Assembly (NCBI GenBank): GCA_038245905.1
Contig: JBBRRY010000015.1
Coordinates: forward strand, 14,611 to 78,610
DNA: 64,000 nt
Origin: Thermoanaerobaculia bacterium
GTDB taxonomy: Bacteria > Acidobacteriota > Thermoanaerobaculia > UBA5066
Direction: 5' to 3'
The notes beneath the pieces are model-generated. The model worked only from the letters and a program-made list of their open reading frames with translations, was not told the origin of the DNA and searched no databases. Both the position numbers and the translations under genes were made by a program. This document shows, piece after piece, positions 1,637-11,922 of this stretch (position 1 is its first letter; each line of letters starts with the position of its first letter).

Positions 1637-2029
1637 TCACCTGTAGATGAGGCGCTCGTGCGACCAGTGGCCAGGGTAGTAACGAGTTCCGCCGCGCACC
1701 CTCTGGTAGCGGGGAGCGATCCAGCGCGCGCGGGCGCGCGGCCGTTCGAACCAGCGGCCGTCGTTCCAGCTCCAGTCCGTACCCGTGTGGTTCCAATACC
1801 CGCCCTGCCATACGTGATTCGGGCCCGGCCGCGCGATGCGGACTTCGTGGCGGCGCTCCGGTGGAGCCTGCGGGACGATGCGGACGTGCAGATCGCCCAT
1901 CATCGGGGGCGCGGGCATCCCGGGCGGCACGGGGGGGTGAGGCTGCGCGATCGCCGTCCCCGCGAAGGGCAAGGCGGCCGCCAGCACGAGGAGAGCGGCG
2001 GAGAGAGTGAGATGTTTGGTTTTTCTCAT
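1637..2029 (-). CDS. Small secreted WxxGxW/YxWGxW-repeat protein
   Basis: Internal ATG at comp(2027..2029) of the 291-aa track ORF gives 130 aa starting MRKTKHLTLSAALLVLAAALPFAGTAIAQP (signal peptide). This is followed by repeated HVWQGGYW, WSWNDGRW and YYPGHW motifs. The upstream part of the track ORF overlaps the STAS gene antisense and looks non-coding. Confidence 0.7.
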   Translation of the reverse strand: MRKTKHLTLSAALLVLAAALPFAGTAIAQPHPPVPPGMPAPPMMGDLHVRIVPQAPPERRHEVRIARPGPNHVWQGGYWNHTGTDWSWNDGRWFERPRARARWIAPRYQRVRGGTRYYPGHWSHERLIYR

Positions 2030-2128
2030 GACTGAGACTCTGCAAGCCTCAGGCCAGAAGGCGACGCTGTGCGGGTCAGAACGCTGGCTTTCGCACCGGC
2101 CTTCTGACATCCTCCGCCCACAAACCCG

Positions 2129-2464
2129 ATGGATCTCTCGCTCCACGAAGACGGAAGTGTCACGGTCGTCACGCTTTCTGGCGACCTCATCATCGGCGAC
2201 GCTGAGGCCGTGTTCAAGAAGACCGTGAGCCGTCTTCTCGAGGAAGGCAAAGTGCAGCTCGTCGTCGATTGCGGAGGCCTCAGATACGTCGATTCGTCCG
2301 GCCTCGGCGCTCTCGTACGCGCGCTCACGACGTCGCAGCACGAGGGCGGCGGGACGAAGCTCCTGGGGGTCCCGTCGTCGCTGCGGAAGCTTCTCGAGCT
2401 GACGAAGCTGGATTCCGTCTTCGAGATGTTCGAACAGCGCGACGAGGCCGTCTCGAGCTTCTAG
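2129..2464 (+). CDS. STAS-domain protein (anti-sigma-factor antagonist, SpoIIAA/RsbV-like)
   Basis: 111 aa. VVTLSGDLIIGDAE...LVVDCGGLRYVDSSGLGALV carries the conserved DSSGL phospho-serine motif typical of STAS antagonists. Confidence 0.85.
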   Translation: MDLSLHEDGSVTVVTLSGDLIIGDAEAVFKKTVSRLLEEGKVQLVVDCGGLRYVDSSGLGALVRALTTSQHEGGGTKLLGVPSSLRKLLELTKLDSVFEMFEQRDEAVSSF

Positions 2465-2491: not shown

Positions 2492-4912
2492 GTGCACATG
2501 GGTGACGTCCACGGAACGGGCCGGACCTCCGAAGCCGAATCCGGCGTTCTCGGAGAGCTCGCGCGCTGCGAGACCGTCGCGCAGAAGGCGGCATGGGCCG
2601 CACGCTGGTGCGCGCGACTCTCCGGAGCGGACATCGCGCTAGTCTTCTGCGTCGACGCGCCCTCCGGCGGGTGGATCGCCCTCGGCGCTTCCGGCGAAGG
2701 CGCGGCGAAGAGCCTTCGCCGCGTCATCCCACGGGATGCGGGCGTCGCGCGGGATGCCGCGCGCAGTCGCGCGCTCCGCGTGATGCGCCGCGACGATGCC
2801 GCTTTCGTTTCCGATCCGATCGTGTCCCTACTCCCGGGGGGCTCCGGATCTGTCCTCATCGCCCCGCTTCTTCTCGACAAGGGTGCGGCCGGCGTGGCGG
2901 CGCTCTCCTTCCGTCAGGAGCCGGCGGCAGAGCGGATCGGGCGGCTCGAAGCCTTCCTGCCCGACGCCGCCGCGGCACTCGATCGCGCGCAGCTCGCGGA
3001 ACGCAAGACGGCCGGGCACCTTTTTGCCATCGAGCGTCTCACGAACCTGTACGACGTCGCGAAAGCGTTCGGCTCGACGATCGATCTGGAAGACCTGTCC
3101 GGACTCATCGCCCGGAAGGCCGCGGACTTCGTGGCGGCCGAGGTCGCGTCGTTCTGGCTTTTCGACTCCGAGGCGGGTGAAGTCTCTCTGGCGGCGACGG
3201 CTCTCAACGAGAACTACGAGATACCGAATCCGCCCGAGTCCATCGGCGGGTCCATCGTCGGGGCCGTCCTCGCGGACCGAACGATCCTGAGAAACAGCGC
3301 GCTCGCGGACGACGATCCCCTCCGGCACGCCGATCCGCCCTTCGAGACACGCTCTGTGCTCGCCGTGCCGCTCGTCGAGGACGACTCTCCGGTCGGCGTC
3401 CTCGTCGCCGCCAACAAGCGCGGGCGCCGCCCGGAGTTCACCGCGGCGGACGAGGAGCTACTCGTCGACGTCGCCCGGCAAGCCGTCGCCGCCTTGCGTA
3501 ACGCGCGGCAGTACGAGGCCGAGAAGAAAGTCGAGGAACTGGACGCCCTCCTCGCGGTGAGCCACGAGATCACCTCGACGCTCGACCTCGACAAGGTGAT
3601 GCGGACGATCGTCAACGGAGCGTCGGCCCTGATCCGTTACGACCTTTGCGCAATCGCGATCCTTCAGCGGGGGAAGCTGCGGATTGGGGCGGTCTCAGGG
3701 GCGTTGGACGTGGACCGGAAAGAGCCGTCGGTTCGGCGGACCGAGGCGCTCCTCGAGTGGGTCTTCTTCGGCGGCTCCGACGTCGCCGTCACGCGCCGCG
3801 AGGACGGCACCATCGCCACCGACCGCCCGGAGACAGAGGAGAAGTTCCGCGCGTTCTTCGACGAGAGCGGCCGCAACGCGTTCTACGGAGTCCTGCTCGA
3901 GGACGACGAGGGAAAACTTGGCGTTCTCGGCTTCGAGTCGACGGAGCCCCTCGAGTTCGAGGCGGAGACCCGGGATCTCCTCCGGATCCTCGTCAACCAG
4001 GCCACCGTGGCCGTCCGCAATGCCCAGCTCTACCAGCAGGTTCCCCTGCCTGGCTTCCTCCGGCCTCTCGCGGAGCGGACACGGAAGCTGCGGGAGCAGC
4101 CCGGCAACCGCGCCCGGCGATGGGTGCTCGGGAGCGCTGGTGCCATGGTCCTTTTGGCCGTCCTGCCGTGGAATGTGAGGGTGTCCGGGCCCGCGCGGGT
4201 CGTGCCGGGCCGGCGGATCCCGGTCACGGCGTCCGTGGAAGGCGTCGTCGAGAGCGTGGCGCATCGCGAGGGGGATGCCGTCGTCGCCGGGGCCGTCCTC
4301 GCGACGCTTCGCGACGACGCCTACCGCGCCGCGGCGGCAGAGGCGCGCGCGGCCGAACAGATCGCCGACTCCGAGGTCTCCCGGCACCGCGCCGAGGGAA
4401 ACGCTCCCGCACTTTTCCAGTCCGCCGCCCGCCGCGACGAATTGCGGGCGCGCGCGGCTCTCGCGGAGGAGAAGCTCGAGAGGACGCGCCTCCGCGCGCC
4501 CGAGGCCGGCATCATCCTGACGCCACGGCTCGAGGAGCGCCTCGGCCAGCTCCTTCCCGCCGGCGCCGAGTTCGCGGTCCTCGCCGAGACGTCCGCCGTC
4601 CTCGTCGAGGTGGCCGTGCCGGAACGGGATGCGTCGCTCCTCGCCGCCGGGCAGAGGGTCGACGTCAAGCTGAACTCATATCCCGCGGCGACGTTCCACG
4701 GGACCGTCGCCCGCCTCGGCGCCGTCGTCCGCGAGGAAGGTGAGGAGCGTTTCGTCATCGCCGAGGCGCGCGTCGAGAACGCGGACGCGCTGCTCCGGCC
4801 CGGAATGCTCGGGAAAGCCAAAGTTTCGACGGGACGCCAGCGGCTTCTCCGCGCCCTCCTCCGCAAGCCGGCGCGCTGGTTCTGGGTACGGCTCTGGCCT
4901 CTCCTGCCGTGA
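2492..4912 (+). CDS. Triple-GAF sensor fused through one TM helix to a HlyD-type membrane fusion (periplasmic adaptor) domain
   Basis: GTG start. Three GAF-type endings are visible: VLIAPLLLDKGAAGVAALSF; SVLAVPLVEDDSPVGVLVAANKRG..ARQAVAALRNARQY; FYGVLLEDDEGKLGVLGFES..VNQATVAVRNAQLY. A TM segment follows (WVLGSAGAMVLLAVLPW). The C-terminus is an HlyD barrel-sandwich/coiled-coil region (VTASVEGVVESVAHREGDAVVAGAVLATL...LRAPEAGIIL...GMLGKAKV). Confidence 0.8.
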   Translation: MHMGDVHGTGRTSEAESGVLGELARCETVAQKAAWAARWCARLSGADIALVFCVDAPSGGWIALGASGEGAAKSLRRVIPRDAGVARDAARSRALRVMRRDDAAFVSDPIVSLLPGGSGSVLIAPLLLDKGAAGVAALSFRQEPAAERIGRLEAFLPDAAAALDRAQLAERKTAGHLFAIERLTNLYDVAKAFGSTIDLEDLSGLIARKAADFVAAEVASFWLFDSEAGEVSLAATALNENYEIPNPPESIGGSIVGAVLADRTILRNSALADDDPLRHADPPFETRSVLAVPLVEDDSPVGVLVAANKRGRRPEFTAADEELLVDVARQAVAALRNARQYEAEKKVEELDALLAVSHEITSTLDLDKVMRTIVNGASALIRYDLCAIAILQRGKLRIGAVSGALDVDRKEPSVRRTEALLEWVFFGGSDVAVTRREDGTIATDRPETEEKFRAFFDESGRNAFYGVLLEDDEGKLGVLGFESTEPLEFEAETRDLLRILVNQATVAVRNAQLYQQVPLPGFLRPLAERTRKLREQPGNRARRWVLGSAGAMVLLAVLPWNVRVSGPARVVPGRRIPVTASVEGVVESVAHREGDAVVAGAVLATLRDDAYRAAAAEARAAEQIADSEVSRHRAEGNAPALFQSAARRDELRARAALAEEKLERTRLRAPEAGIILTPRLEERLGQLLPAGAEFAVLAETSAVLVEVAVPERDASLLAAGQRVDVKLNSYPAATFHGTVARLGAVVREEGEERFVIAEARVENADALLRPGMLGKAKVSTGRQRLLRALLRKPARWFWVRLWPLLP

Positions 4913-7104
4913 GCGCAGCTGCGCCGGACCCGGTCTCGCGGTACGTTGCGGCCGCCCGCGGCGGACGCGGCGCGGCGGCTCTCGCCGCGCGCCACACCCC
5001 TCGGCAGGACCACCCCGCCCTTCGGGCGGACCTCGTCATCCGCCGCCAGGTGCGAATCGGCGAGGTCACCTGGGTCGTCAAGCAACCGGAGGCGAACAAG
5101 TTCTACAACTTCGAGGACGCCGACTGGACCCTCATCGAGCTTTTCGACGGAACGCGGAGTCTCACTGAAATCCGCGAGGAGTACTGCCGGCGGGTCCCGG
5201 GAGGCGAGATCGCCTTCACCCTCATCCTCGACTACCAGGAGATGCTGCAAAGGATCGAGTTCCTGGAGCAGTCGGCGGCCGAGAAGAACCTCCAGCTCCT
5301 GTCGAAGTTCAAGACCCTGAGGCAGAAAGCGGCGGAGGAGCGCGCGGAGGGTTTCAACATCCTCTTCATGCTCTTCAAGGTCTTCGACCCCGACCGGATC
5401 CTCAATCGGACGATCCGGTACGTCCGCTGGCTCTGGAGTCCCCCCGTCGTCGCGGTCGCCTGTGTCGCGTTCCTCTTCACGATCGGTGTCTTCGCGGCGC
5501 GCTTCGACACGATCTGGGCCCAGACGATCGAGCTCTACTCGTTCCTGAGAAAGCCGTTCTGGGACTTCGTCCAATTCTGGGTCATCCTGACCACGATCGG
5601 CTGCATCCACGAGTTCGGTCATGGCTATGCCACGAAGATGTACGGGGGCGAGGTCCATGACATGGGGATCGCCCTCCTCTACTTCATGCCTGCCTTTTAC
5701 TGCGACACGACGGACTCGCTCCTCTTCCCGAGCAAGTGGCAGAAGCTGACGGTCACGGTGGCGGGGATCTACATCGAGGCGATCCTCTGCACGATCGCGA
5801 CGGCGCTCTGGGTGGCGAGCTACCCCGACACGCTTCTCCACGAGCTGGCCTACAAGACGATGCTCTTCACCGGGGTCTCGACGATCTTCTTCAACATCAA
5901 CCCCCTCGTGAAGATCGACGGCTACTACGCGCTTTGCAGCCTCACCGAGATCCCGGAGCTGCGCGAGGAGTCTTTCCGCTGGATGGGCGCGATCTTCCAG
6001 CGCCACATCCTCCGCCTGAACGTCGAGGTGCCGGTCGTGTCGCGGCGGAAGAGGCGGATCTTCCTGATCTACGGTCCGCTCGCGCTGGGCTACATCGGTT
6101 TCATCATGGCGTTCATCACGAAGCTCCTCGACAACTTCTACTCGAAGGTCGTCCCGGAGCTGGCCGTCGTCCTCCTCCTCGTCACGCTCTACTTCTTCTT
6201 CCGGAAGAGGGTCCGCCTCGTCCTCCGGATCTCCCGCCTCTTCTATCTCGACAAGAAGGAGCTCGTCATGTCGCCGCGCGCCCGTCTCCCTCTCCTTGCT
6301 GCCGCCGCCGGCCTCGTCCTCTTTCTCGCCGTCCCCTGGGGCCGGCGGACGATCAGGATGGACGCCGTCCTCGAGCCCGCCGCGTCGGTGAAGGTCGAGG
6401 CCCCGGAGGACGGAGTCGTGCGGGAGGTCTTCGCGCGCGAAGGGGACATCCTGCGGGCGGGCCAACCGCTTTTCCGGATCGAGAGCCCCGGCGTCGTGGC
6501 CGATTCCGCGTCCCTCTCGGCCCGCCGCGCGGGGGCTGCCGACGAGATGGGAAGGAGCTTCCGGTCCGGAGACGCCGGGGAGGTCTATCGGGCCGAGCGG
6601 AAGGAGGGGGCGGCCGCAGCCGGTCTTGCCCTCGACACGGCGCGCACGGCGCGACTCTCCGTGCTCAGCCCGATGGACGGGCGTCTCCTTTCGGAAGGCG
6701 CGGAAAACCTCGTCGGCAGGTGGGTTACGGCAGGAACCGTTCTCGGAACAGTTGGCGCCACGCGGCAGCTCACGGCAGTATTCCCGGTCTCGGAGCGCCT
6801 TCTGACAGACCTTGTGGTCGGAGCGCCGGTTTCGGTGCAGCTTCGCGCGCGCCCGTTCCACATCCTCCACGGCACGATTGTTTCCATAGCTCCCGCGTCT
6901 CAGGCCGCTTCGTCCGACACCCCCCCGGCACTCCGCCCGTCCGAAACGCCCGGCCGCATCGTGGCTGTGGCGCGTTTCGAAAATCCCGACGGCAGCCTGA
7001 AGCCGAGGCTCGAAGGGAGGGCGAAGATCAGGGGGCCTCGGAGCTCGCTCCTCGGAGAGGGCTTCCGGATCCTCTCCCGTTGGCTCCGCGCGATCGCCTG
7101 GTGA
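4909..7104 (+). CDS. Tri-domain membrane protein: PqqD-like (RRE-like) N-terminal domain + M50 (site-2 protease family) zinc metalloprotease + C-terminal HlyD-type adaptor domain
   Basis: GTGA start/stop overlap with the upstream gene. N-terminus FYNFEDADWTLIELFDGTRSLTEIREEY...ILDYQEMLQRIEFLE resembles PqqD/RRE domains. M50 motifs are present: IHEFGHGYATKMYGG (HExxH) and FFNINPLVKIDGYY (NxxPxxxxDG), within multiple TM segments. The C-terminus (VKVEAPEDGVVREVFAREGDILRAGQPLFRIESP ... GRAKIRG) is HlyD-like. Confidence 0.8.
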   Translation: MSAAAPDPVSRYVAAARGGRGAAALAARHTPRQDHPALRADLVIRRQVRIGEVTWVVKQPEANKFYNFEDADWTLIELFDGTRSLTEIREEYCRRVPGGEIAFTLILDYQEMLQRIEFLEQSAAEKNLQLLSKFKTLRQKAAEERAEGFNILFMLFKVFDPDRILNRTIRYVRWLWSPPVVAVACVAFLFTIGVFAARFDTIWAQTIELYSFLRKPFWDFVQFWVILTTIGCIHEFGHGYATKMYGGEVHDMGIALLYFMPAFYCDTTDSLLFPSKWQKLTVTVAGIYIEAILCTIATALWVASYPDTLLHELAYKTMLFTGVSTIFFNINPLVKIDGYYALCSLTEIPELREESFRWMGAIFQRHILRLNVEVPVVSRRKRRIFLIYGPLALGYIGFIMAFITKLLDNFYSKVVPELAVVLLLVTLYFFFRKRVRLVLRISRLFYLDKKELVMSPRARLPLLAAAAGLVLFLAVPWGRRTIRMDAVLEPAASVKVEAPEDGVVREVFAREGDILRAGQPLFRIESPGVVADSASLSARRAGAADEMGRSFRSGDAGEVYRAERKEGAAAAGLALDTARTARLSVLSPMDGRLLSEGAENLVGRWVTAGTVLGTVGATRQLTAVFPVSERLLTDLVVGAPVSVQLRARPFHILHGTIVSIAPASQAASSDTPPALRPSETPGRIVAVARFENPDGSLKPRLEGRAKIRGPRSSLLGEGFRILSRWLRAIAW

Positions 7105-7114
7105 CCGTAAACAC

Positions 7115-7142
7115 GAGCGCCCCGGCCGGAGCCGGGGCGCTC
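7115..7142. terminator. Bidirectional stem-loop between convergent genes (M50-HlyD gene and repeat-peptide gene)
   Basis: GAGCGCCCCGGC-CGGA-GCCGGGGCGCTC: a perfect 12-bp GC stem with a 4-nt loop, between the stop at 7104 (+) and the stop at 7165 (-). No clear U-tract on either side. Confidence 0.55.
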
Positions 7143-7164
7143 ATGGACGCGGGGAGATGCGCCG

Positions 7165-7569
7165 TCAGTCGGCGTTGTCCGTCGCCCGCGCGTTCAGGAT
7201 TTTGGGGGCCGCCTGCGTGCGGGCCGCGGTAACGCGGGGGGCCGCCTGCGCGCGGGCCGCGGTAACGCGGGGGGCCGCCTGGGCGCGGGCTGCGGTGACG
7301 CGAGGAGCCGCCTGCGCGCGGGCTGCGGTGACGCGAGGAGCCGCCTGCGCGCGAGCCGCGGTGACGCGAGCGGCTGCCTGCGCGCGCGCCATGTTGACGC
7401 GGGGGGCCGCCTGCACACGGGCGCTCGTGACCTTGGCCGAAGTCGTCGGCGTCATGGCGGGGTTGTTGCCGAGATTGCTGACGCGGATCTCACCGACGGC
7501 CTGACCGGTCGCCTGCTTGATCTTCGCCTTCTGCTCGTCGGTCAGCTTGATCCGTACTTCGTTTGCCAT
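7165..7569 (-). CDS. Small (134 aa) leader-plus-tandem-repeat protein; candidate exported or processed peptide precursor
   Basis: ATG at comp(7567..7569) preceded by GAAAGAGGAGGCCACC, a strong AGGAGG Shine-Dalgarno. N-terminus is MANEVRIKLTDEQKAKIKQATGQAVGEIRVSNLGNNPAMTP. Then come about 8 copies of an 11-aa unit: 4 perfect RVTAARAQAAP plus the variants KVTSARVQAAP, RVNMARAQAAA, RVTAARTQAAP and KILNARATDNAD. A sigma54 promoter lies upstream. The longer track ORF (7165..7638) has a non-coding-looking N-terminal extension. Confidence 0.7.
   Translation of the reverse strand: MANEVRIKLTDEQKAKIKQATGQAVGEIRVSNLGNNPAMTPTTSAKVTSARVQAAPRVNMARAQAAARVTAARAQAAPRVTAARAQAAPRVTAARAQAAPRVTAARAQAAPRVTAARTQAAPKILNARATDNAD
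7204..7434. repeat. Seven tandem copies of a 33-bp unit (encode the 11-aa repeats of the small ORF)
   Basis: Period 33 with unit starts at 7204, 7237, 7270, 7303, 7336, 7369 and 7402. Consensus on the + strand is GGGGCCGCCTGCGCGCGGGCCGCGGTGACGCGG. Central copies differ by only 1-3 nt and outer copies are more diverged. Confidence 0.9.
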
Positions 7570-7633: not shown

Positions 7634-7649
7634 TGCAAAGAGGGGGCCA
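7634..7649 (-). promoter_or_regulatory. Sigma54 (RpoN) -24/-12 promoter for the repeat-peptide gene
   Basis: The minus strand reads TGGCCCCCTCTTTGCA, against the consensus TGGCAC-N5-TTGCW. GG and GC have the exact canonical spacing. It lies about 65 nt upstream of the ATG at 7569 and 117 nt downstream of the stop of the sigma54 activator gene. Confidence 0.75.
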
Positions 7650-7765
7650 GACCAGTCCGGCCGCCAGAGACCCGTAAGTGGTTGAGGAAACGTCGAGACC
7701 GCCTCGTCGCGGTTACGCCGGCTCGATGACTCTTTCAACCTCGGTTGACGGATTCATCGGTCCGC

Positions 7766-9163
7766 TCAGAGGCGGTACTTCCGGCAGAGGTACTTCATCT
7801 GGTTTGCGTCGAGGCCGAGTGCTTCGGCGGCCCGCACCTTCACGCCTCCGGCGCGGGAAATGGCCTGGCTCACGAGCTCCCGTTCGAACCTTCCGACCGA
7901 CTCGGCAAGGGAGAGGTCGGCAGAGTGCGTCGCGGCGGGTTGGGCCGGCTCCCGGGAGCCGCCGGCCCGGCCCAACGTCCCCGGCAGATGCTCCTCCCCG
8001 ATCGTGTCGCCGTCCACCATGAGCGTCAGCATCTCGACGAGGTGTTCCAGCTCGCGCACGTTTCCGCGGAAGATGTGTCGCCCGAGCACCTCGAAGGCTT
8101 CGGACGAGAAGGCCTTCGGGCGGCGGCCATGGCGCTCTGCGGCCCGCGCCGTGAAGAATTCCACGAGCAAGGGGATGTCCTCGCGCCGCTCTCTCAGCGG
8201 CGGAATCCTCAGGATGACGGTGTTCAGGCGATAGAAGAGGTCATTGCGGAACGTTCCCGCCGCCACCTGACGCTCCAGGTCTTCGTTCGTGGCCGCGACG
8301 AGCCGGATGTCGACGTGGATCGTCTTCGTCCCGCCGACCCGCTCGAAGTCGCGCTGCTCGAGGACGCGCAACAACTTGGCCTGTACGGCCGGGGATAGTG
8401 TCGCGACTTCGTCCAGGAAGAGCGTCCCGCCGTGAGCCATCTCGAAACGCCCGGGCCGGGAGGCCACGGCCCCGGTGAAGGCACCCCGCTCATGGCCGAA
8501 GAGCTCGGACTCGGCTAGCGTCTCCGTGAGCGCCGAGCTGTTCACGGCTACGAACGGCCCGTCCCGGCGAGTGCTCCCCCGGTGGATCGCTTCGGCCACG
8601 AGCTCTTTCCCCGTTCCGCTTTCACCGGTCACGAGGACGGTCGCGTCGGTGGGGGCCACCTTCTCGATGGCGGCGAAGAGCCCGCGCATGCTTGGGCTCT
8701 CGCCCACCAGCCCGCCGTACGACCCACGCTTGAAGATCTCCTCCTTCAGCGCCCGGTTTTCAGCCAGGATGCGGTGTCGCTCCAAGGCTCGCCCGAGAAC
8801 GAGGAGCAGCTCCGACTTCTCGAAGGGCTTCCGGAAGAAATCGAATGCACCCAGCTCGACGGCTTTCAGCGCCCAGCGGCGCTCCGCCTCCGCCGTCATG
8901 ACCACGACCGTGGCGGCCGGCTGGCGCTGCCGAATGGCCCGCAGCAGACGGAGCCCCTCTTCCGCCTCGCCCGACGGCGGGAGCCGGAGGTCGACGAGGT
9001 AGACGTCGGGCTCGAGCTCGGCCAGCTTGAGCCCCGCGGCGGCGTCCCCTGCACTGTGGACTTCGAACCTGTCCTTCAGAGCCCAGAGGAGCTGGTCGCG
9101 CAGGAGCGGATCGTCTTCCACGACGGCGAGGCGCCCCTCCACCGTCTTTTGGACCACGCCCAC
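7766..9163 (-). CDS. Sigma54-dependent response regulator (NtrC-family bacterial enhancer-binding protein: REC + AAA+ + Fis-type HTH)
   Basis: REC domain LAVVEDDPLLRDQL...DVYLVDLRLPP. Walker A GESGTGKE. The sigma54-contact loop ERGAFTGAV (GAFTGA) is present. C-terminal HTH KVRAAEALGLDANQMKYLCRKY. Confidence 0.92.
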   Translation of the reverse strand: MGVVQKTVEGRLAVVEDDPLLRDQLLWALKDRFEVHSAGDAAAGLKLAELEPDVYLVDLRLPPSGEAEEGLRLLRAIRQRQPAATVVVMTAEAERRWALKAVELGAFDFFRKPFEKSELLLVLGRALERHRILAENRALKEEIFKRGSYGGLVGESPSMRGLFAAIEKVAPTDATVLVTGESGTGKELVAEAIHRGSTRRDGPFVAVNSSALTETLAESELFGHERGAFTGAVASRPGRFEMAHGGTLFLDEVATLSPAVQAKLLRVLEQRDFERVGGTKTIHVDIRLVAATNEDLERQVAAGTFRNDLFYRLNTVILRIPPLRERREDIPLLVEFFTARAAERHGRRPKAFSSEAFEVLGRHIFRGNVRELEHLVEMLTLMVDGDTIGEEHLPGTLGRAGGSREPAQPAATHSADLSLAESVGRFERELVSQAISRAGGVKVRAAEALGLDANQMKYLCRKYRL

Positions 9164-9165
9164 GC

Positions 9166-9891
9166 CTACACCTGCCGGCCAGGCGCGGCCGGAAGCGGCA
9201 GGAAGAGACGGACGCTGGTGCCCTCGCCCTCCGCACTTCTAACCTCGACGTCGCCCCGGTGGTGGCGCAGGATGCGGCGCGCCGTGTAGAGACCGAGTCC
9301 CACGCCTCCGGGCTTCGTCGTCTGGAACGGCCGGAACAGGCGCCGCCGCACGAACTCTCCCGACATCCCGGGCCCGTCGTCCTCGACGTCGACCACGGCG
9401 AAGTCTCGCGCCCCTCGCCGCTCGAGGCTCGTGCGTACCGTCACGCAGCTCTTCGCGGCCTCCTGCGCGTTCTGAATCACGCCCTGGATCGCCTCTTGCA
9501 AGTAGTAAGGGTCGCCCCAGAGCCCGGGGACCTCGGCGAAGGTCGCGTTCATCCGCGGTGTCGACGCCCGCCCCCGGGGGTGGCACGTGTGCAGGGCCTC
9601 CCGGATCAGGTCGTTCAGATCGAGCGGCACCTTGATGAGGACCGAGTCGCGATGAGCCGACCAGCTTCTCGCGATCCCGTCGAGCTTCTGGACGGTGGAT
9701 TGCAGGAGGTCCGTGGCGCTGCGTTTGAAATCCGGATCGCCGTAGTGCTCCTCCATGTTCGACAGGAGAAGGCTGAGGCGGAGCTCGAGGTTCCGGATGT
9801 CGTGGATGAGGACGGAGTCCTTCGTGGCGCGGATGCGTCGACGCGGGGCAGCCGTGCGTGTCGCCATGGTTTCAGGGCCGGGAAGGCGCAC
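9166..9891 (-). CDS. Soluble histidine kinase (DHp + HATPase_c only; no TM or sensor domain)
   Basis: H-box VLIHDIRNLELRLSLL. N/G boxes VIQNAQEA, VEDDGPGM and GGVGLGLYTARRILRHHRG. The stop lies 2 nt from the regulator start. An alternative start at comp(9865..9867) (MATRTA..) would avoid overlap with the upstream adaptor gene. Confidence 0.85.
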   Translation of the reverse strand: MRLPGPETMATRTAAPRRRIRATKDSVLIHDIRNLELRLSLLLSNMEEHYGDPDFKRSATDLLQSTVQKLDGIARSWSAHRDSVLIKVPLDLNDLIREALHTCHPRGRASTPRMNATFAEVPGLWGDPYYLQEAIQGVIQNAQEAAKSCVTVRTSLERRGARDFAVVDVEDDGPGMSGEFVRRRLFRPFQTTKPGGVGLGLYTARRILRHHRGDVEVRSAEGEGTSVRLFLPLPAAPGRQV

Positions 9892-10657
9892 GGAACGTGA
9901 GCCGGACCGCCATCCCCGGCCGCAGTATTTTTTTCGGATCGTGCTTCACCCGCACGATCACCTGCACCGTCCCGCTGCCCGGATCGATGACGGGGCTGAT
10001 GAACGAGACGCGCCCGCTCGAGCGTGCGTCCGGGAAATCCGGAGCCTCCACGGTCACTTCGTCACCGGTCTTCACGGTCTGAAGGCCGGAGGCCGGCAGA
10101 TAGGCGCGCGCCAGAAGCGGCTGGAGCGCCATCACCTTGAAGAGCGGTTTGCTCTCTTCGAGCGTGAACTTTTCCCCCACGCGCGCGTAACGGTCCGCCA
10201 CGATCCCGTCGAAGGGAGCGCGCACCACGGACCGGTCGATCACGAGTTTCGCCCTCTCCAGCTCCACGAGGGCCAGCTCGTGTCGCGATCTTCTCTGCTC
10301 GAACTCGGCCTCGCTCGTCAGATTCTGGCGGCGCAGCTCCTCGTACCTTTTCAGGTCCGCGAGACTCACGGCGAGCGTCTCCTCCGCGGCTCTCAGATCC
10401 AGGCGGAACTCGCGCTGGTCCAGCGTGGCGAGCGGCTGCGACTTCCGCACGAGCTCGCCCCGCTCGACCTGGATCGAGTCGATCACGCCGCTGACCCGAG
10501 TCGTCACCGTGACTTCCTGCTCGACCATCAGGTTCGAGGCGACGGTGAGCGGCGCAGGAAGCGCCGGCGCCGGCAGAGCGGCGCTGGCCCTCGCGAGCGC
10601 AAGGAGGGAGACGGCGATGAACGCCCGACCGGTAAGCCGGATTGAGTCGCGCGTGAC
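9872..10657 (-). CDS. HlyD/RND-type periplasmic adaptor (membrane fusion protein); start codon uncertain
   Basis: Typical MFP sequence VTTRVSGVIDSIQVERGELVRKSQPLATLD...VVRAPFDGIVADRYARVGE...GSGTVQVIVRV. The first canonical start is the ATG at comp(10526..10528). The in-frame upstream codons encode a signal anchor (RLTGRAFIAVSLLALARASAALPAP). A GGAGG at comp(10663..10667) sits 5 nt before a GTC codon at comp(10655..10657). The track ORF extension to 11137 overlaps the aminotransferase gene and is rejected. Confidence 0.75.
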   Translation of the reverse strand, partial: VTRDSIRLTGRAFIAVSLLALARASAALPAPALPAPLTVASNLMVEQEVTVTTRVSGVIDSIQVERGELVRKSQPLATLDQREFRLDLRAAEETLAVSLADLKRYEELRRQNLTSEAEFEQRRSRHELALVELERAKLVIDRSVVRAPFDGIVADRYARVGEKFTLEESKPLFKVMALQPLLARAYLPASGLQTVKTGDEVTVEAPDFPDARSSGRVSFISPVIDPGSGTVQVIVRVKHDPKKILRPGMAVRLTFRAPSRP

Positions 10658-10695
10658 TTTTTCCTCCAGGGTGTCTGGAACGGAATGATACCGAA

Positions 10696-11922
10696 TCAGG
10701 CGGGCGTGAGCGCGCGCACGAGGCGCTTGAGGGCCTCGTAGAAAACACCAGGCGGCGGCAGGAGGCTGACGACGACGAACGCCTCGAAAGGGAACTCGTA
10801 GAAATAGCCGGGCTGGACGAGCAGATCGTGTGATTCGAGGAGATCGAGGACGAGCTCCTCCTCGGGGCGGACAGCCGGCACGCGGAGGCACGCGGCCCAG
10901 CCGGCCCGGACGGGTAGGACCGTAACACCGCCACCCGCGGGGAAGGCAGCCTTGAGCGCGCGCTCGTTGCGAAGCACGCGCGCCCAGATCGCTTCCGCCG
11001 TCCCGCGCCCGTACTCCAGAAGCCTGGGGAGCGCGAGCTGCACGGGCGTCGAGACGGAGAGATACGAATCCGCAACCCACTCGAGGCGCTCGATCGCCTG
11101 CTCGAGGAGCCCGGCGGGTCCATTCGCGAGTATCCATCCGAGCTTCATCTGCGGGAGGCCGGCCGACTTGGAGAGCCCGCCCAGCGAGAAAACGAGCGCT
11201 TCGGGCGCGTTCGCGGCTGCGGCCACGCGCACGTCGCCGGGCCGGTCCGAGTAGCGATAGTCGACGAACACCTCGTCGGAGACGACGGCGAACCGGCGCT
11301 CCTTCGCCAGCGTCATGAGATCCGACAGCTCCGCGCCAGAGAGGGAGGTGCCCGTCGGGTTGTTCGGATTGACGACGACCACGGCCGCGACGCGACGTCC
11401 TTCCACCTCGACGCGCCGCACTTCCGCCTCCACGGCCGCCGCGTGGAACGCGAAGCCGTCATCGCTCGCGAGCGCGTAGCGGCGCAGCGACAGGCACTCG
11501 AGCTCCGCGAGGGTGTCGAGAAGCGGGTAGGACGGCGCCGGCACGAGGACGACGTCGCCGGGATCGCCCACCAGCTTGAAAAGCCAGCCGTAGGCTTCGC
11601 TCGACGAGGCCGTCAGGACGATCTGGTGCGGGGGCGCGAGAACGCCGTGCAACGCCGCGTAGTAGTTGCTCACGGACGTGCGCGCCGCGAGCAGTCCCCT
11701 CGGATCGGGTGCATACGAGAGGCCGCGGGGATCGGAGAGAGCCGCGAGAATGCGCGCGTCCGGCGCCGACGCAGCGTTGTCGAAGAGGTCGGCTTCGCCC
11801 GAACGCAGAGAGACGGCGGTCGGATTCGACACGGCGAGATCGAGGAACGGGCGCGTTCGCGCCGCGACCGCGCGCGTCAGGCGGTTCACGTCGCGGGGGG
11901 CGGGGATCCGCTGCGAGAACAT
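10696..11922 (-). CDS. Class I/II pyridoxal-phosphate-dependent aminotransferase
   Basis: 408 aa. LDLAVSNPT, VVVNPNNPTG and FSLGGLSKSAGLPQMKLGW (PLP-lysine SKS motif) are typical of AlaT/AspC-like transaminases. Confidence 0.85.
   Translation of the reverse strand: MFSQRIPAPRDVNRLTRAVAARTRPFLDLAVSNPTAVSLRSGEADLFDNAASAPDARILAALSDPRGLSYAPDPRGLLAARTSVSNYYAALHGVLAPPHQIVLTASSSEAYGWLFKLVGDPGDVVLVPAPSYPLLDTLAELECLSLRRYALASDDGFAFHAAAVEAEVRRVEVEGRRVAAVVVVNPNNPTGTSLSGAELSDLMTLAKERRFAVVSDEVFVDYRYSDRPGDVRVAAAANAPEALVFSLGGLSKSAGLPQMKLGWILANGPAGLLEQAIERLEWVADSYLSVSTPVQLALPRLLEYGRGTAEAIWARVLRNERALKAAFPAGGGVTVLPVRAGWAACLRVPAVRPEEELVLDLLESHDLLVQPGYFYEFPFEAFVVVSLLPPPGVFYEALKRLVRALTPA

What the first reader, a model, noticed from the sequence alone, without database searches (positions are those of the whole stretch)
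7165..7569. 134-aa ORF with a lysine-rich leader-like N-terminus and ~8 tandem 11-residue Ala/Arg/Pro repeats (possible multi-core precursor)
The N-terminal ~40 residues (MANEVRIKLTDEQKAKIKQATGQAVGEIRVSNLGNNPAMTP) are compositionally normal and look like a recognition or leader segment. The remainder is KVTSARVQAAP, RVNMARAQAAA, 4x RVTAARAQAAP, RVTAARTQAAP and KILNARATDNAD. A strong AGGAGG RBS and a dedicated sigma54 promoter argue that it is expressed. A leader followed by several near-identical cassettes recalls multi-core RiPP precursors, in which one precursor yields several peptide copies. The convergent neighbour carries a PqqD-like domain and a protease. One alternative is a basic, intrinsically disordered nucleoid-associated protein, since AlgP/histone-H1-like proteins also have Ala/Pro/basic repeats. 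Another is a cell-envelope repeat protein.
Basis: partly seen in the sequence, partly recalled or inferred. Interest (0 to 1): 0.8.

Follow-up and report, generated by a model that had tools for sequence, protein, structure and literature searches.

The report
Repeat-tailed precursor peptide with dedicated protease
This small gene encodes a precursor peptide with a conserved 40-residue recognition "leader" and a fast-evolving tail of repeated short units, always found beside a membrane protease that carries a leader-binding domain; the pairing occurs in about 150 soil-bacterial species and no paper in the searched library describes it.

Summary
Window 7569..7165 (minus strand) is a 134-aa ORF with a conserved N-terminus and eight 11-residue units. 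It has an AGGAGG ribosome-binding site and a sigma54 -24/-12 promoter.

The N-terminal ~40 aa define a protein family of about 100 clusters at 50% identity, with 49 loci in Acidobacteriota species genomes. In these loci the leader is conserved and the tail is a hypervariable tandem array with unit periods of 4-24 aa. Repeat copies differ about twice as often at third codon positions, so the unit peptide sequence is under selection.

The gene sits in a fixed cassette: small adaptor protein (PAP), histidine kinase, sigma54 response regulator, precursor, then convergent M50-protease-PAP, GAF-PAP and STAS genes. A structure prediction of the protease's N-terminus matches lasso-peptide leader-binding domains (RREs).

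Gemmatimonadota carry the same leader and the same three machinery proteins, but with cargo tails of only 2-16 aa. Another relative of the leader sits next to TglHI-like RiPP enzymes.

Best reading: a leader-guided precursor that is cleaved, and probably exported, by the RRE-M50-PAP machine. No modifying enzyme is conserved in the cassette, and release of individual units ("multi-core") is plausible but unproven. The nucleoid-protein alternative is not supported. No description was found in the literature searched.

The parts
7165..7569 (-). Precursor gene, 134 aa plus stop: leader, short linker, then eight 11-residue units
   Evidence: Translation; homologues; codon-position signature
7447..7569 (-). 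Leader module, residues 1-41 (MANEVRIKLTDEQKAKIKQATGQAVGEIRVSNLGNNPAMTP)
   Evidence: 18 invariant columns among 13 homologues. An exhaustive profile search finds 124 cluster representatives, about 100 with the module at the N-terminus. hhalign against the Gemmatimonadota leaders gives 98.5% probability.
7171..7434 (-). Cargo array, residues 46-133: eight 11-residue Ala/Arg/Pro units, net charge +14, no transmembrane segment
7575..7580 (-). Ribosome-binding site AGGAGG, 5 nt upstream of the ATG
   Evidence: Sequence; an RGGAGG site is present in most homologous loci
7634..7649 (-). Sigma54 -24/-12 promoter TGGCCCCCTCTTTGCA
   Evidence: TGG-N9-TGC is present 43-81 nt upstream of the ATG in 49 of 49 loci, against 0.03 expected per locus
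7735..7748 (.). Candidate activator binding site: palindrome TCAACC-N2-GGTTGA about 100 nt upstream of the -24 element
   Evidence: the GGTTGA/GTTGAA hexamer is present in 36-37 of 50 homologous upstream regions. Assigning it as a binding site is inference.
7115..7145 (.). GC-rich hairpin between the convergent genes, a likely bidirectional terminator
   Evidence: sub-threshold Rfam hits to sRNA 3' ends only
7766..9163 (-). NtrC-type sigma54-dependent response regulator (receiver, AAA+ and HTH domains), directly upstream of the precursor
   Evidence: upstream on the same strand in 44 of 49 loci
9166..9891 (-). Soluble histidine kinase (H-box plus HATPase_c, no transmembrane segment or sensor domain)
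   Evidence: conserved in 42 of 49 loci
9872..10600 (-). Small periplasmic adaptor (PAP/HlyD-like) protein; overlaps the kinase start by 20 nt. Its true start is uncertain because the long ORF runs into the aminotransferase gene.
   Evidence: conserved in 43 of 49 loci
4909..7104 (+). RRE-M50-PAP fusion protein, 731 aa, convergent with the precursor gene
   Evidence: present in 41 of 49 loci, the rest being contig ends or orphan copies
5014..5268 (+). RRE (PqqD-like) domain, residues 36-120, with beta-beta-beta-alpha-alpha-alpha topology
   Evidence: AF2 pLDDT 90.6. Foldseek top hits are TbiB1-leader complexes 5v1u/5v1v (TM 0.64-0.69, probability 1.0), CteB 5why and lasso B1 6jx3.
5386..6333 (+). 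M50 intramembrane metalloprotease core with HEFGH (residues 234-238) and NxxPxxxxDG (329-338)
   Evidence: Pfam PF02163. NCBIfam daptide_HExxH scores 169 bits, below its cutoff of 300, and YydH/LiaK scores 49 bits. H234, H238 and D337 are invariant. Hydrophobic segments are listed.
6340..7104 (+). Periplasmic adaptor (PAP) module with lipoyl, alpha-hairpin (residues 527-581) and beta-barrel parts
   Evidence: Foldseek matches MexA, AcrA, MacA, ZneB and EmrA at E about 1e-13.
2492..4912 (+). GAF-GAF-TM-PAP protein, 806 aa; its stop overlaps the start of the M50 gene
   Evidence: conserved in 41 of 49 loci and in Gemmatimonadota
2129..2464 (+). STAS-domain protein, 111 aa, first conserved gene of the plus-strand operon
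   Evidence: conserved at 59-93% identity in 11 of the 13 related loci searched

Best explanation
The ORF encodes a ribosomal precursor peptide of an apparently undescribed leader family. It is transcribed from its own sigma54 promoter, probably under control of the adjacent NtrC-type response regulator and soluble histidine kinase. Its conserved ~40-residue N-terminus (xVRIKLTDEQKAKIKxATGxxxxEIRV...LGxNPA) acts as a leader that docks on the cytoplasmic RRE domain of the convergently encoded RRE-M50-PAP protein. The intramembrane M50 metalloprotease then separates the leader from the C-terminal cargo near the conserved junction. The cargo here is about 90 aa, eight 11-residue Ala/Arg/Pro units, net charge +14. 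It is handed to a periplasm-spanning assembly built from the three adaptor-type proteins (M50-PAP, GAF-PAP and the small PAP) and leaves the cytoplasm. Shown here: the family, the leader/cargo architecture, the fixed gene linkage, the promoter, the RRE fold, an intact protease active site, and selection on the unit peptide. Inferred: binding, the cleavage site, export, and control by the regulator. Whether the array is then cut into single units is open; I put that at about one in three. The biological role is also open. My lean is a secreted cationic peptide or peptides acting as a signal or antagonist.
For: 1) Leader/cargo architecture. 18 of 41 leader columns are invariant, while tails differ completely between close relatives. 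2) Fixed linkage in Acidobacteriota: the response regulator is present in 44 of 49 loci, and M50-PAP and GAF-PAP in 41 of 49; absences are contig ends or orphan second copies. 3) The same leader type (hhalign 98.5%) sits beside the same three machinery proteins in Gemmatimonadota: GAF-PAP in 65, PAP in 57 and M50-PAP in 56 of 80 loci, with a different regulator. The peptide-machinery pairing is therefore the conserved core. 4) The N-terminal domain of the protease is an RRE by fold; its top PDB hits are RREs solved with bound leader peptides. 5) The M50 core has intact HExxH and NxxPxxxxDG motifs. Its nearest curated families are RiPP peptidases, daptide_HExxH and YydH/LiaK. TglG, an M50 RiPP peptidase, is also predicted to carry an RRE (PMC9016710). 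EpeP, another M50 peptidase, is thought to both cleave and export its product (PMC10885120). 6) The C-terminal domain is a true PAP with an alpha-hairpin. 7) The sigma54 promoter is present in 49 of 49 loci, and a conserved palindrome lies upstream. 8) The cargo is translated and constrained: mismatches between adjacent copies are 20.2%, 15.6% and 38.4% at codon positions 1, 2 and 3 over 36 loci. 9) The same leader type is used by a TglHI-type RiPP locus.
Against: No modifying enzyme, no ATP- or PMF-driven transporter and no outer-membrane channel gene is part of the conserved cassette, so export has no identified motor. Nothing here shows transcription, translation, binding or cleavage. The protein has no signal peptide or transmembrane segment. 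The M50 protein scores below the curated cutoffs of every named RiPP peptidase family. The many regulatory domains (GAF, STAS, kinase, regulator) would also fit a purely regulatory proteolysis circuit.
Confidence: 0.6

Rival explanations
1. Multi-core precursor in the strict sense. After or during leader removal the array is cut at every unit boundary, releasing about 7-8 copies of an 11-mer such as RVTAARAQAAP (monoisotopic mass 1110.63 Da). This would be a bacterial counterpart of multi-copy pheromone or cyanobactin-type precursors. It refines the best explanation rather than excluding it.
For: Gemmatimonadota precursors with the same leader carry a single cargo of 2-16 aa (median 7). These cargos are basic and rich in G, K, R and P, matching the length (4-22 aa) and composition of Acidobacteriota units. 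Intermediate forms exist: L140 has RTMP|RKAMP|RKAMP|RKATP, P0226 has (VAEELRKAP)n, and P0232 repeats an EERANP motif; in each the unit repeats the junction motif. 17 of 38 unit types contain proline, and several end in small-small-Pro like the junction. Unit peptides are kept by purifying selection despite synonymous divergence, for example L032 with 9/8/68 mismatches at codon positions 1/2/3.
Against: 21 of 38 unit types have no proline, and no motif is shared across unit boundaries in the family. An RRE-guided protease is expected to cut at a fixed distance from the leader, that is, once. The edge units are degenerate. No second protease is conserved; the S9 prolyl peptidase next to the cassette occurs only in the closest relative, L012.
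Confidence: 0.3
2. A regulatory substrate that is not exported. The small protein docks on the RRE-M50 and is degraded, or sequesters the protease, as part of a signalling circuit with the GAF, STAS, kinase and regulator components. The disordered tail would act as a degradation handle or timer rather than a product.
For: The cassette is unusually rich in signalling domains: two GAF domains, STAS, a sensor-less kinase and a sigma54 activator. No transporter or modifying enzyme is present. M50 site-2 proteases classically act in regulated proteolysis (established knowledge).
Against: The three PAP modules, one with a TolC-docking-type alpha-hairpin, are hard to explain without a periplasmic or export function. 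Selection on the exact unit sequence and extreme diversification between relatives are unexpected for a mere handle. In Gemmatimonadota there are 1-3 paralogous precursors per locus, as in bacteriocin and pheromone loci.
Confidence: 0.1
3. A basic, intrinsically disordered nucleoid-associated protein of the AlgP / histone-H1 type, or a generic polyanion-binding protein, that acts intact in the cytoplasm.
For: The tail is Ala/Arg/Pro-rich with net charge +14 and pI about 12. One distant family member (P0224) gives weak hits to H1-like models, 30 bits against a cutoff of 80. 79 of 101 family tails are net positive.
Against: The window protein matches no NCBIfam model, including the H1-like ones. 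19 of 101 tails are net acidic, and Gemmatimonadota tails are only 2-16 aa, so DNA binding cannot be the family's conserved function. The strict linkage to a membrane protease with an RRE has no place in this model.
Confidence: 0.03

Closest known systems
TglG / TmoG, membrane-bound M50 peptidases of pearlin pathways (3-thiaglutamate biosynthesis)
   Same: Both are M50 metalloproteases predicted to carry an RRE that recognises a ribosomal scaffold peptide and cuts off its C-terminal part (PMC9016710, PMC10885120). A peptide with the same leader type as the window's (P0230) lies next to TglH- and TglI-like genes.
   Different: The cassette here has no PEARL (LanB-like) ligase and no MNIO enzyme. 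The M50 is fused to a periplasmic adaptor. The cargo is a ~90-aa repeat array rather than a single appended amino acid. TglA uses an F[N/D]LD motif that is not seen here.
Daptide intramembrane metalloprotease (NCBIfam NF041824) and YydH/EpeP/LiaK epipeptide protease (NF058609)
   Same: These are the best-scoring curated families for the M50 protein. The daptide model aligns over residues 53-431, which includes the RRE-like region. EpeP is thought to both cleave and export its peptide (PMC10885120).
   Different: Scores are 169 and 49 bits against cutoffs of 300 and 225. There are no daptide tailoring genes, no radical-SAM epimerase, no ABC transporter and no C-terminal Thr on the precursor. 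The PAP fusion and the two extra PAP proteins are additional.
Lasso-peptide B1/B2 leader peptidase (RRE plus protease)
   Same: An RRE presents the leader to an attached or partner protease. The RRE model's best structural matches are the lasso B1 proteins TbiB1 and 6jx3, solved with bound leader.
   Different: The protease here is an intramembrane zinc M50 enzyme rather than a cytoplasmic cysteine protease. There is no cyclase. Sequence identity to the structural hits is 12-15%.
Double-glycine-leader bacteriocin and pheromone export (PCAT ABC transporter with C39 peptidase, HlyD-family accessory protein, and an inducing peptide with kinase and regulator)
   Same: The logic is the same: an unmodified small precursor with a conserved N-terminal leader, a leader peptidase physically coupled to the envelope-spanning apparatus, a HlyD-type adaptor, and an adjacent two-component system next to the peptide gene.
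   Different: There is no ABC transporter or ATPase. The peptidase is M50 rather than C39. The leader family is different. The promoter is sigma54-dependent. The cargo is a tandem array.
Multi-core precursors (cyanobactin PatE-type, yeast alpha-factor-type polyproteins)
   Same: One leader is followed by several near-identical cassettes, and the copies are kept identical at the peptide level despite synonymous changes.
   Different: No conserved recognition or cleavage sequence flanks each unit across the family. No macrocyclase or dedicated unit-cutting protease is present. Release of units has not been shown.
AlgP / histone-H1-like Ala/Pro/Lys repeat proteins
   Same: Both have a basic, low-complexity Ala/Pro-rich repeat composition.
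   Different: The window protein matches no H1-like model. Tails in the family can be acidic or only 2-16 aa long. The genomic context is a membrane protease and adaptor cassette.

Membership tests
RiPP precursor (general definition) | Small gene-encoded peptide with a conserved leader and a variable core | tested here: met
   Leader mean column identity is 85% with 18 invariant columns. Tails are hypervariable in sequence and period.
RiPP precursor (general definition) | Co-localised enzyme that post-translationally modifies the core | tested here: not met
   The conserved cassette holds only a protease, three PAPs, STAS, a kinase and a response regulator. The neighbouring aminotransferase, S9 peptidase and alpha/beta hydrolase are not conserved beyond the closest relative.
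RiPP precursor (general definition) | RRE (PqqD-like) domain in a pathway protein | tested here: met
   AF2 model of residues 36-120 of the M50 protein has pLDDT 90.6. Foldseek top hits are TbiB1, CteB and lasso B1 RREs. Pfam's PqqD model itself does not hit.
RiPP precursor (general definition) | The leader is bound by the RRE and removed by a pathway protease | not testable with these tools
   This needs a complex prediction or binding and cleavage assays. Only the presence of an RRE fused to an intact M50 site is shown.
Multi-core precursor | Repeated cores, each flanked by a conserved recognition or cleavage sequence | tested here: inconclusive
   17 of 38 unit types contain Pro, several ending in small-small-Pro like the junction, but 21 of 38 have no Pro and share no motif. 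A few distant members repeat the junction motif itself.
Multi-core precursor | Individual units released as separate peptides | not testable with these tools
   Requires mass spectrometry.
Daptide system (NF041824 protease) | Protease scores above the curated cutoff; tailoring genes present; precursor ends in Thr | tested here: not met
   The score is 169.4 bits against a cutoff of 300. No tailoring genes are conserved in the cassette. The precursor ends ...TDNAD.
Epipeptide system (YydF/YydG/YydH) | YydH/LiaK-family protease above cutoff, radical-SAM epimerase, ABC transporter | tested here: not met
   The score is 49 bits against a cutoff of 225. No radical-SAM or ABC gene is in the cassette.
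Pearlin pathway | PEARL (LanB-like) aminoacyl-tRNA ligase acting on a scaffold peptide, with or without an MNIO TglHI pair | tested here: not met
   Neither is present in the window cassette. A related leader (P0230) does sit next to TglH- and TglI-like genes elsewhere.
Sigma54-dependent gene | GG-N10-GC -24/-12 element at a suitable distance, plus a bacterial enhancer-binding protein | tested here: met
   TGGCCCCCTCTTTGCA lies 65-80 nt upstream of the ATG. The element is conserved in 49 of 49 loci against 0.03 expected per locus. An NtrC-type activator is adjacent. Activity itself was not tested.
Tripartite efflux / type I secretion system | Inner-membrane ABC, RND or MFS transporter plus a PAP plus an outer-membrane factor | tested here: not met
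   Only PAP modules are present. No transporter or TolC-like gene is in the cassette or its conserved flanks. Partners encoded elsewhere cannot be excluded.
AlgP / histone-H1-like nucleoid protein | Match to H1-like models; basic repeat as the conserved, function-defining part | tested here: not met
   The window protein matches 0 NCBIfam families. The tail is the non-conserved part of the family, and 19 of 101 tails are net acidic.
PEP-CTERM PrsK/PrsR regulatory pair | Scores above the TIGR02915 and TIGR02916 cutoffs | tested here: not met
   The regulator scores 429.5 bits against a cutoff of 502.6, and the kinase 142.8 against 300. These are the nearest models but the proteins are not members.

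The most novel reading that the evidence does not exclude
The three adaptor proteins and the RRE-M50 protease form an ATPase-less 'cleave-and-eject' peptide secretion machine of diderm bacteria. In Acidobacteriota its substrates have become polyprotein precursors: tandem arrays of short cationic peptides released as many copies. These would act as lineage-specific signals sensed through the small PAP and kinase pair, giving a sigma54 autoinduction loop. That would be a bacterial analogue of multi-copy pheromone precursors and a new secretion route.
Probability: 0.2. Interest if true: 0.85.

Novelty: new variant of a known kind. Interest (0 to 1): 0.7.

Why it matters
If correct, this defines a new and widespread leader-peptide family together with its processing machine. 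It is found in about 50 Acidobacteriota and at least 100 Gemmatimonadota species genomes, two abundant and poorly cultured soil phyla. The machine couples an RRE-guided intramembrane protease directly to periplasmic adaptor proteins, with no modifying enzyme and no recognisable transporter.

It also provides a class-independent handle for genome mining: the leader motif and the RRE-M50-PAP fusion. It suggests how short unmodified peptides could leave diderm cells. And it offers a natural series from single 2-16-aa cargos to 200-aa tandem arrays, in which to study how multi-copy peptide precursors evolve.

The sigma54 two-component control makes the system directly testable with reporter fusions and synthetic peptides.

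Tried and rejected
- A protein-database search with the N-terminal 46 aa alone returned only 5 candidates because of the word index. The exhaustive profile search was needed.
- Pfam and NCBIfam give nothing meaningful for the precursor. There is only a sub-threshold Apolipoprotein hit (30.5 bits against a cutoff of 90), which reflects the 11-residue periodicity. An 11-mer amphipathic-helix reading was dropped because family periods range from 4 to 24 aa.
- A PDB sequence search with the leader found nothing.
- A PADLOC search found no defence-system match for the cassette, apart from generic sigma54-activator similarity.
- Literature searches for M50/HlyD/PqqD/RiPP, GAF/HlyD/sigma-54, daptide protease, the motif 'LEERIAP', and Gemmatimonadota precursor/HlyD found no description of this system. 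Searches within the RRE-Finder paper, the 2025 RRE-definition paper and the MNIO-landscape paper found no mention of an M50 or HlyD fusion.
- The S9 prolyl peptidase (11938-14031) was considered as a post-proline unit cutter, and the aminotransferase (10696-11922) as a daptide-like tailoring enzyme. Both were rejected because they are conserved only in the closest relative.
- A CRISPR or non-coding RNA reading of the 33-bp repeat was rejected. The copies are head-to-tail without spacers, the frame is conserved, and Rfam gives only sub-threshold hits on the terminator hairpin.
- Foldseek with the full-length model returned only adaptor proteins, so the RRE had to be modelled separately.
Full report
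**Observation.** It comprises a ~41-residue N-terminus, a 4-residue linker, and eight 11-residue units: KVTSARVQAAP, RVNMARAQAAA, 4x RVTAARAQAAP, RVTAARTQAAP and KILNARATDNA(D). Tandem Repeats Finder sees a 33-bp period at 7204-7422 with 6.6 copies, 88% matches and no indels. AGGAGG lies 5 nt before the ATG. A sigma54-type element, TGGCCCCCTCTTTGCA, lies at 7649-7634. The pattern TGG[CT]N7TTGC[AGT] occurs only twice in the 64 kb on both strands. GC at the third codon position is 84%, like neighbouring genes. The five central units differ at six synonymous sites and one non-synonymous site. The protein has no hydrophobic segment, and its tail has net charge +14.

**Family.** A search with the whole protein found 11 relatives, and 11 genome loci in Acidobacteriota (Thermoanaerobaculia) MAGs. 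All share the first ~40 residues almost unchanged and then diverge completely. Thirteen N-termini align with 85% mean column identity and 18 invariant columns. An exhaustive profile search of 1.84 billion cluster representatives found 124 hits at E <= 1e-3, and about 100 carry the module at their very N-terminus (sequences).

Among 101 representatives with a tail of at least 15 aa, 50 are strongly periodic, with periods of 5 to 24 aa. Seventy-nine are net basic and 19 net acidic, and aromatic residues and Cys are rare. A second scan of species-representative genomes gave 49 Acidobacteriota loci. Their tails include (AAPRN)n, (LSPK)n, (SLKSP)n, (GLSGKP)n, (RGAAAP)n, (SARSARATE)n, (QDLSA)n and (EALRAGDQ)n, often over 100 aa long. 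Close relatives with about 85% identical regulators can carry unrelated units (L021 against L022). Copy number also varies between near-identical genes (P0001 against L001).

**The tails are translated and constrained.** Adjacent copies were compared over 36 loci. Mismatch rates at codon positions 1, 2 and 3 are 20.2%, 15.6% and 38.4%. In some arrays the copies are old at the DNA level yet identical as peptide; L032 has 9, 8 and 68 mismatches at positions 1, 2 and 3. The unit peptide sequence therefore matters. The arrays are not merely recent slippage products or composition-driven spacers.

**Gene neighbourhood.** The gene sits in a fixed cassette.
- On its own strand, from upstream to downstream: a small PAP/HlyD-like protein (9872-~10600), a soluble sensor-less histidine kinase (9166-9891, overlapping the PAP gene by 20 nt), an NtrC-type sigma54 activator (7766-9163), and the precursor.
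- Convergent with these: STAS (2129-2464), GAF-GAF-TM-PAP (2492-4912), and a 731-aa M50-PAP protein (4909-7104).
- A GC-rich hairpin separates the two converging gene ends.

Of the 49 loci, 44 have the regulator, 42 the kinase, 43 the small PAP, and 41 each of the two large proteins. The exceptions are contig ends and three orphan second copies. The orphans lie among housekeeping genes in genomes that hold a complete cassette elsewhere. The TGG-N9-TGC element is present 43-81 nt upstream of the ATG in 49 of 49 loci, against 0.03 expected per locus. A palindrome, TCAACC-N2-GGTTGA (7735-7748), lies about 100 nt upstream of it, and its hexamer recurs in 36-37 of 50 upstream regions. The adjacent aminotransferase, S9 peptidase and alpha/beta hydrolase are conserved only in the nearest relative. 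No transporter, outer-membrane channel or modifying enzyme belongs to the cassette.

**The protease.** Pfam finds Peptidase_M50 and HlyD domains. The best NCBIfam models are the daptide intramembrane metalloprotease (169 bits, cutoff 300, aligned over residues 53-431) and the YydH/LiaK epipeptide protease (49 bits, cutoff 225). More than 620 homologues exist, and JGI names them 'putative peptide zinc metalloprotease protein'. H234, H238 (HEFGH) and N331-P332...D337-G338 are invariant across 46 sequences.

An AlphaFold2 model (pLDDT 77.6) shows three parts: an N-terminal beta-beta-beta-alpha-alpha-alpha domain, a helical membrane core, and a C-terminal adaptor with a two-helix hairpin. Foldseek matches the adaptor to MexA, AcrA, MacA, ZneB and EmrA at E about 1e-13. 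Residues 36-120 modelled alone (pLDDT 90.6) give as top PDB hits the lasso-peptide RRE TbiB1 solved with its leader peptide (TM 0.64-0.69, probability 1.0), the RRE of CteB, and lasso B1 6jx3. From the literature, the pearlin M50 peptidase TglG is also predicted to contain an RRE (PMC9016710), and the M50 protease EpeP is thought to both cleave and export its epipeptide (PMC10885120).

**Beyond Acidobacteriota.** Weaker profile hits are 45-60-aa peptides of the form xVRIELTxEQKxQIxxATGKDAxAIELSVEELEERIAP followed by a short tail. Their leader is homologous to the window's (hhalign 98.5%, E 2e-15). One such locus (L014) has three tandem precursor genes followed directly by GAF-GAF-PAP, a lipoprotein PAP and an M50-PAP protein. 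A genome scan returned 103 relatives, and nearly all of the 80 loci kept are from Gemmatimonadota. Of those 80, 65 have GAF-PAP, 57 the PAP, 56 the M50-PAP, and 58 a divergent BTAD/AAA regulator in place of the sigma54 pair. They carry 1-3 precursors each.

Their 89 distinct tails are 2-16 aa long with one outlier (median 7). They are rich in G, K, R and P, and mostly carry a charge of +1 to +3. The conserved core across two phyla is therefore the leader peptide plus the three machinery proteins, while regulation is interchangeable.

Another leader homologue, P0230 (hhalign 97.7%), ends in ...LDKVAGGAKPVGPHC. It is followed by an MNIO enzyme and a TglI-like partner. So the same leader type also serves a recognisable RiPP pathway.

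**Mechanism proposed.**
- Shown: leader/cargo architecture, fixed linkage, RRE fold, intact M50 site, a true adaptor module, a conserved sigma54 promoter, and selection on the units.
- Inferred: the activator, fed by the sensor-less kinase, switches on the precursor promoter. The leader binds the cytoplasmic RRE. The M50 site cuts near the conserved junction (LGxNPA[VLM][ST]P here, EELEERIAP in Gemmatimonadota). The cargo leaves through an assembly of the three adaptor proteins.
- Unknown: the energy source and the outer-membrane partner.

**One product or many?**
- For unit release: Acidobacteriota unit lengths (4-22 aa) and composition mirror the single Gemmatimonadota cargos. Mini-arrays exist in which the unit repeats the junction motif, namely L140 (RKAMP)3, P0226 (VAEELRKAP)n and P0232 with EERANP. 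Seventeen of 38 unit types contain proline, several ending in small-small-Pro like the junction. Units are under purifying selection.
- Against: 21 of 38 unit types have no proline and no common boundary motif. An RRE-guided protease would be expected to cut once, at a fixed distance from the leader.
- I therefore treat 'multi-core' as a plausible refinement, at about 0.3, and not as established.

**Rivals.** A non-exported regulatory substrate fits the abundance of signalling domains. It does not explain three adaptor modules, unit-level selection, or the multiple paralogous precursors per locus. The nucleoid-protein idea fails because the basic tail is the non-conserved part of the family; tails can be acidic or 2-16 aa long, and the window protein hits no H1-like model. 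A chance ORF, a CRISPR array and a non-coding RNA are excluded.

**Comparison with known systems.** The system works like RRE-guided leader or scaffold peptidases (TglG, the daptide protease, EpeP/YydH, lasso B1/B2). It also resembles leader-dependent bacteriocin and pheromone export coupled to a HlyD-type adaptor and a neighbouring two-component system. It is not a member of any of these families. Scores fall below every curated cutoff, the tailoring enzymes are absent, there is no ABC transporter, and the leader matches no Pfam or NCBIfam model. Seven searches of the held papers found no description of the leader, the RRE-M50-PAP fusion or the cassette. That library omits most subscription journals, so prior description cannot be fully excluded.

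**Verdict.** I rate it a new variant of a known kind, namely leader-guided ribosomal peptides processed by RRE-bearing M50 proteases. The unusual features are the adaptor fusions, the lack of a transporter or modifying enzyme, and the tandem-array cargo. Interest is 0.7.

Noticed in passing
window 2056..1637 (minus strand): The only other match in the 64 kb to the sigma54 -24/-12 pattern is TGGCCTGAGGCTTGCA at 2056-2041. It lies 13 nt upstream of an ATG at 2028 that opens a ~130-aa secreted protein with a signal peptide and a WXXGXW repeat (PF12779, at threshold). This gene is divergent from the STAS gene and is not conserved in distant loci. The promoter-to-ATG distance is very short, so the match may be chance or the transcript leaderless.
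   Followed up: partly
L032, L036, L053, L056, L059 (Acidobacteriota loci): These tails are (GLSGKP)n, a Gly-X-Y collagen-like pattern with up to about 50 triplets. They show the strongest excess of synonymous differences between copies (L032: 9/8/68 mismatches at codon positions 1/2/3). L032, L036 and L056 are orphan second copies. L032 lies among housekeeping genes (HPPK, SDR, amino-acid permease). All three keep the sigma54 promoter.
   Followed up: partly
L069-L148 and L014 (Gemmatimonadota loci): A sister system is widespread in Gemmatimonadota. It has a divergent BTAD/AAA regulator, 1-3 precursors of 45-56 aa ending ...EELEERIAP plus a 2-16-aa basic tail, and then GAF-PAP, a lipoprotein PAP and an RRE-M50-PAP protein. 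L140 carries a mini-array RKAMP-RKAMP-RKATP.
   Followed up: partly
L016 1-2128 and L017: A 57-aa peptide with the same leader type, a double-glycine motif and a C-terminal Cys (…LDKVAGGAKPVGPHC) is followed by an MNIO (TglH/BufB-like) enzyme and a TglI-like partner. This looks like a pearlin-like locus with a genome-encoded terminal Cys.
   Followed up: partly
window 7735-7748 and 7680-7685: The palindrome TCAACC-TC-GGTTGA lies right after the regulator's stop codon, and a third GGTTGA copy lies nearer the promoter. The hexamer recurs in 36-37 of 50 homologous upstream regions, making it a candidate binding site for the sigma54 activator.
   Followed up: partly
window 9872-11137 against 10696-11922 (minus strand): The long ORF for the small PAP overlaps the aminotransferase gene. 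Distant homologues match only from about residue 160-190 onward, so the real start is probably near 10600. The PAP stop and kinase start overlap by 20 nt, which suggests translational coupling.
   Followed up: partly
L004/L031, L005/L037, L010/L048: In several MAG loci the reading frame changes inside the repeat array, giving Arg/Gly-rich read-through products of up to 572 aa. These are probably indel errors in assembled repeats. Real frameshift variation was not excluded.
   Followed up: no
L035: One complete cassette with an Acidobacteriota-like leader lies on a contig binned as Acidithiobacillales. This may be a binning error or a horizontal transfer.
   Followed up: no
window 7100-7167: The terminator hairpin between the convergent genes gives sub-threshold Rfam hits to the 3' ends of proteobacterial sRNAs (sX6, 27.6 bits against a gathering score of 40). 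This is a generic terminator resemblance.
   Followed up: yes
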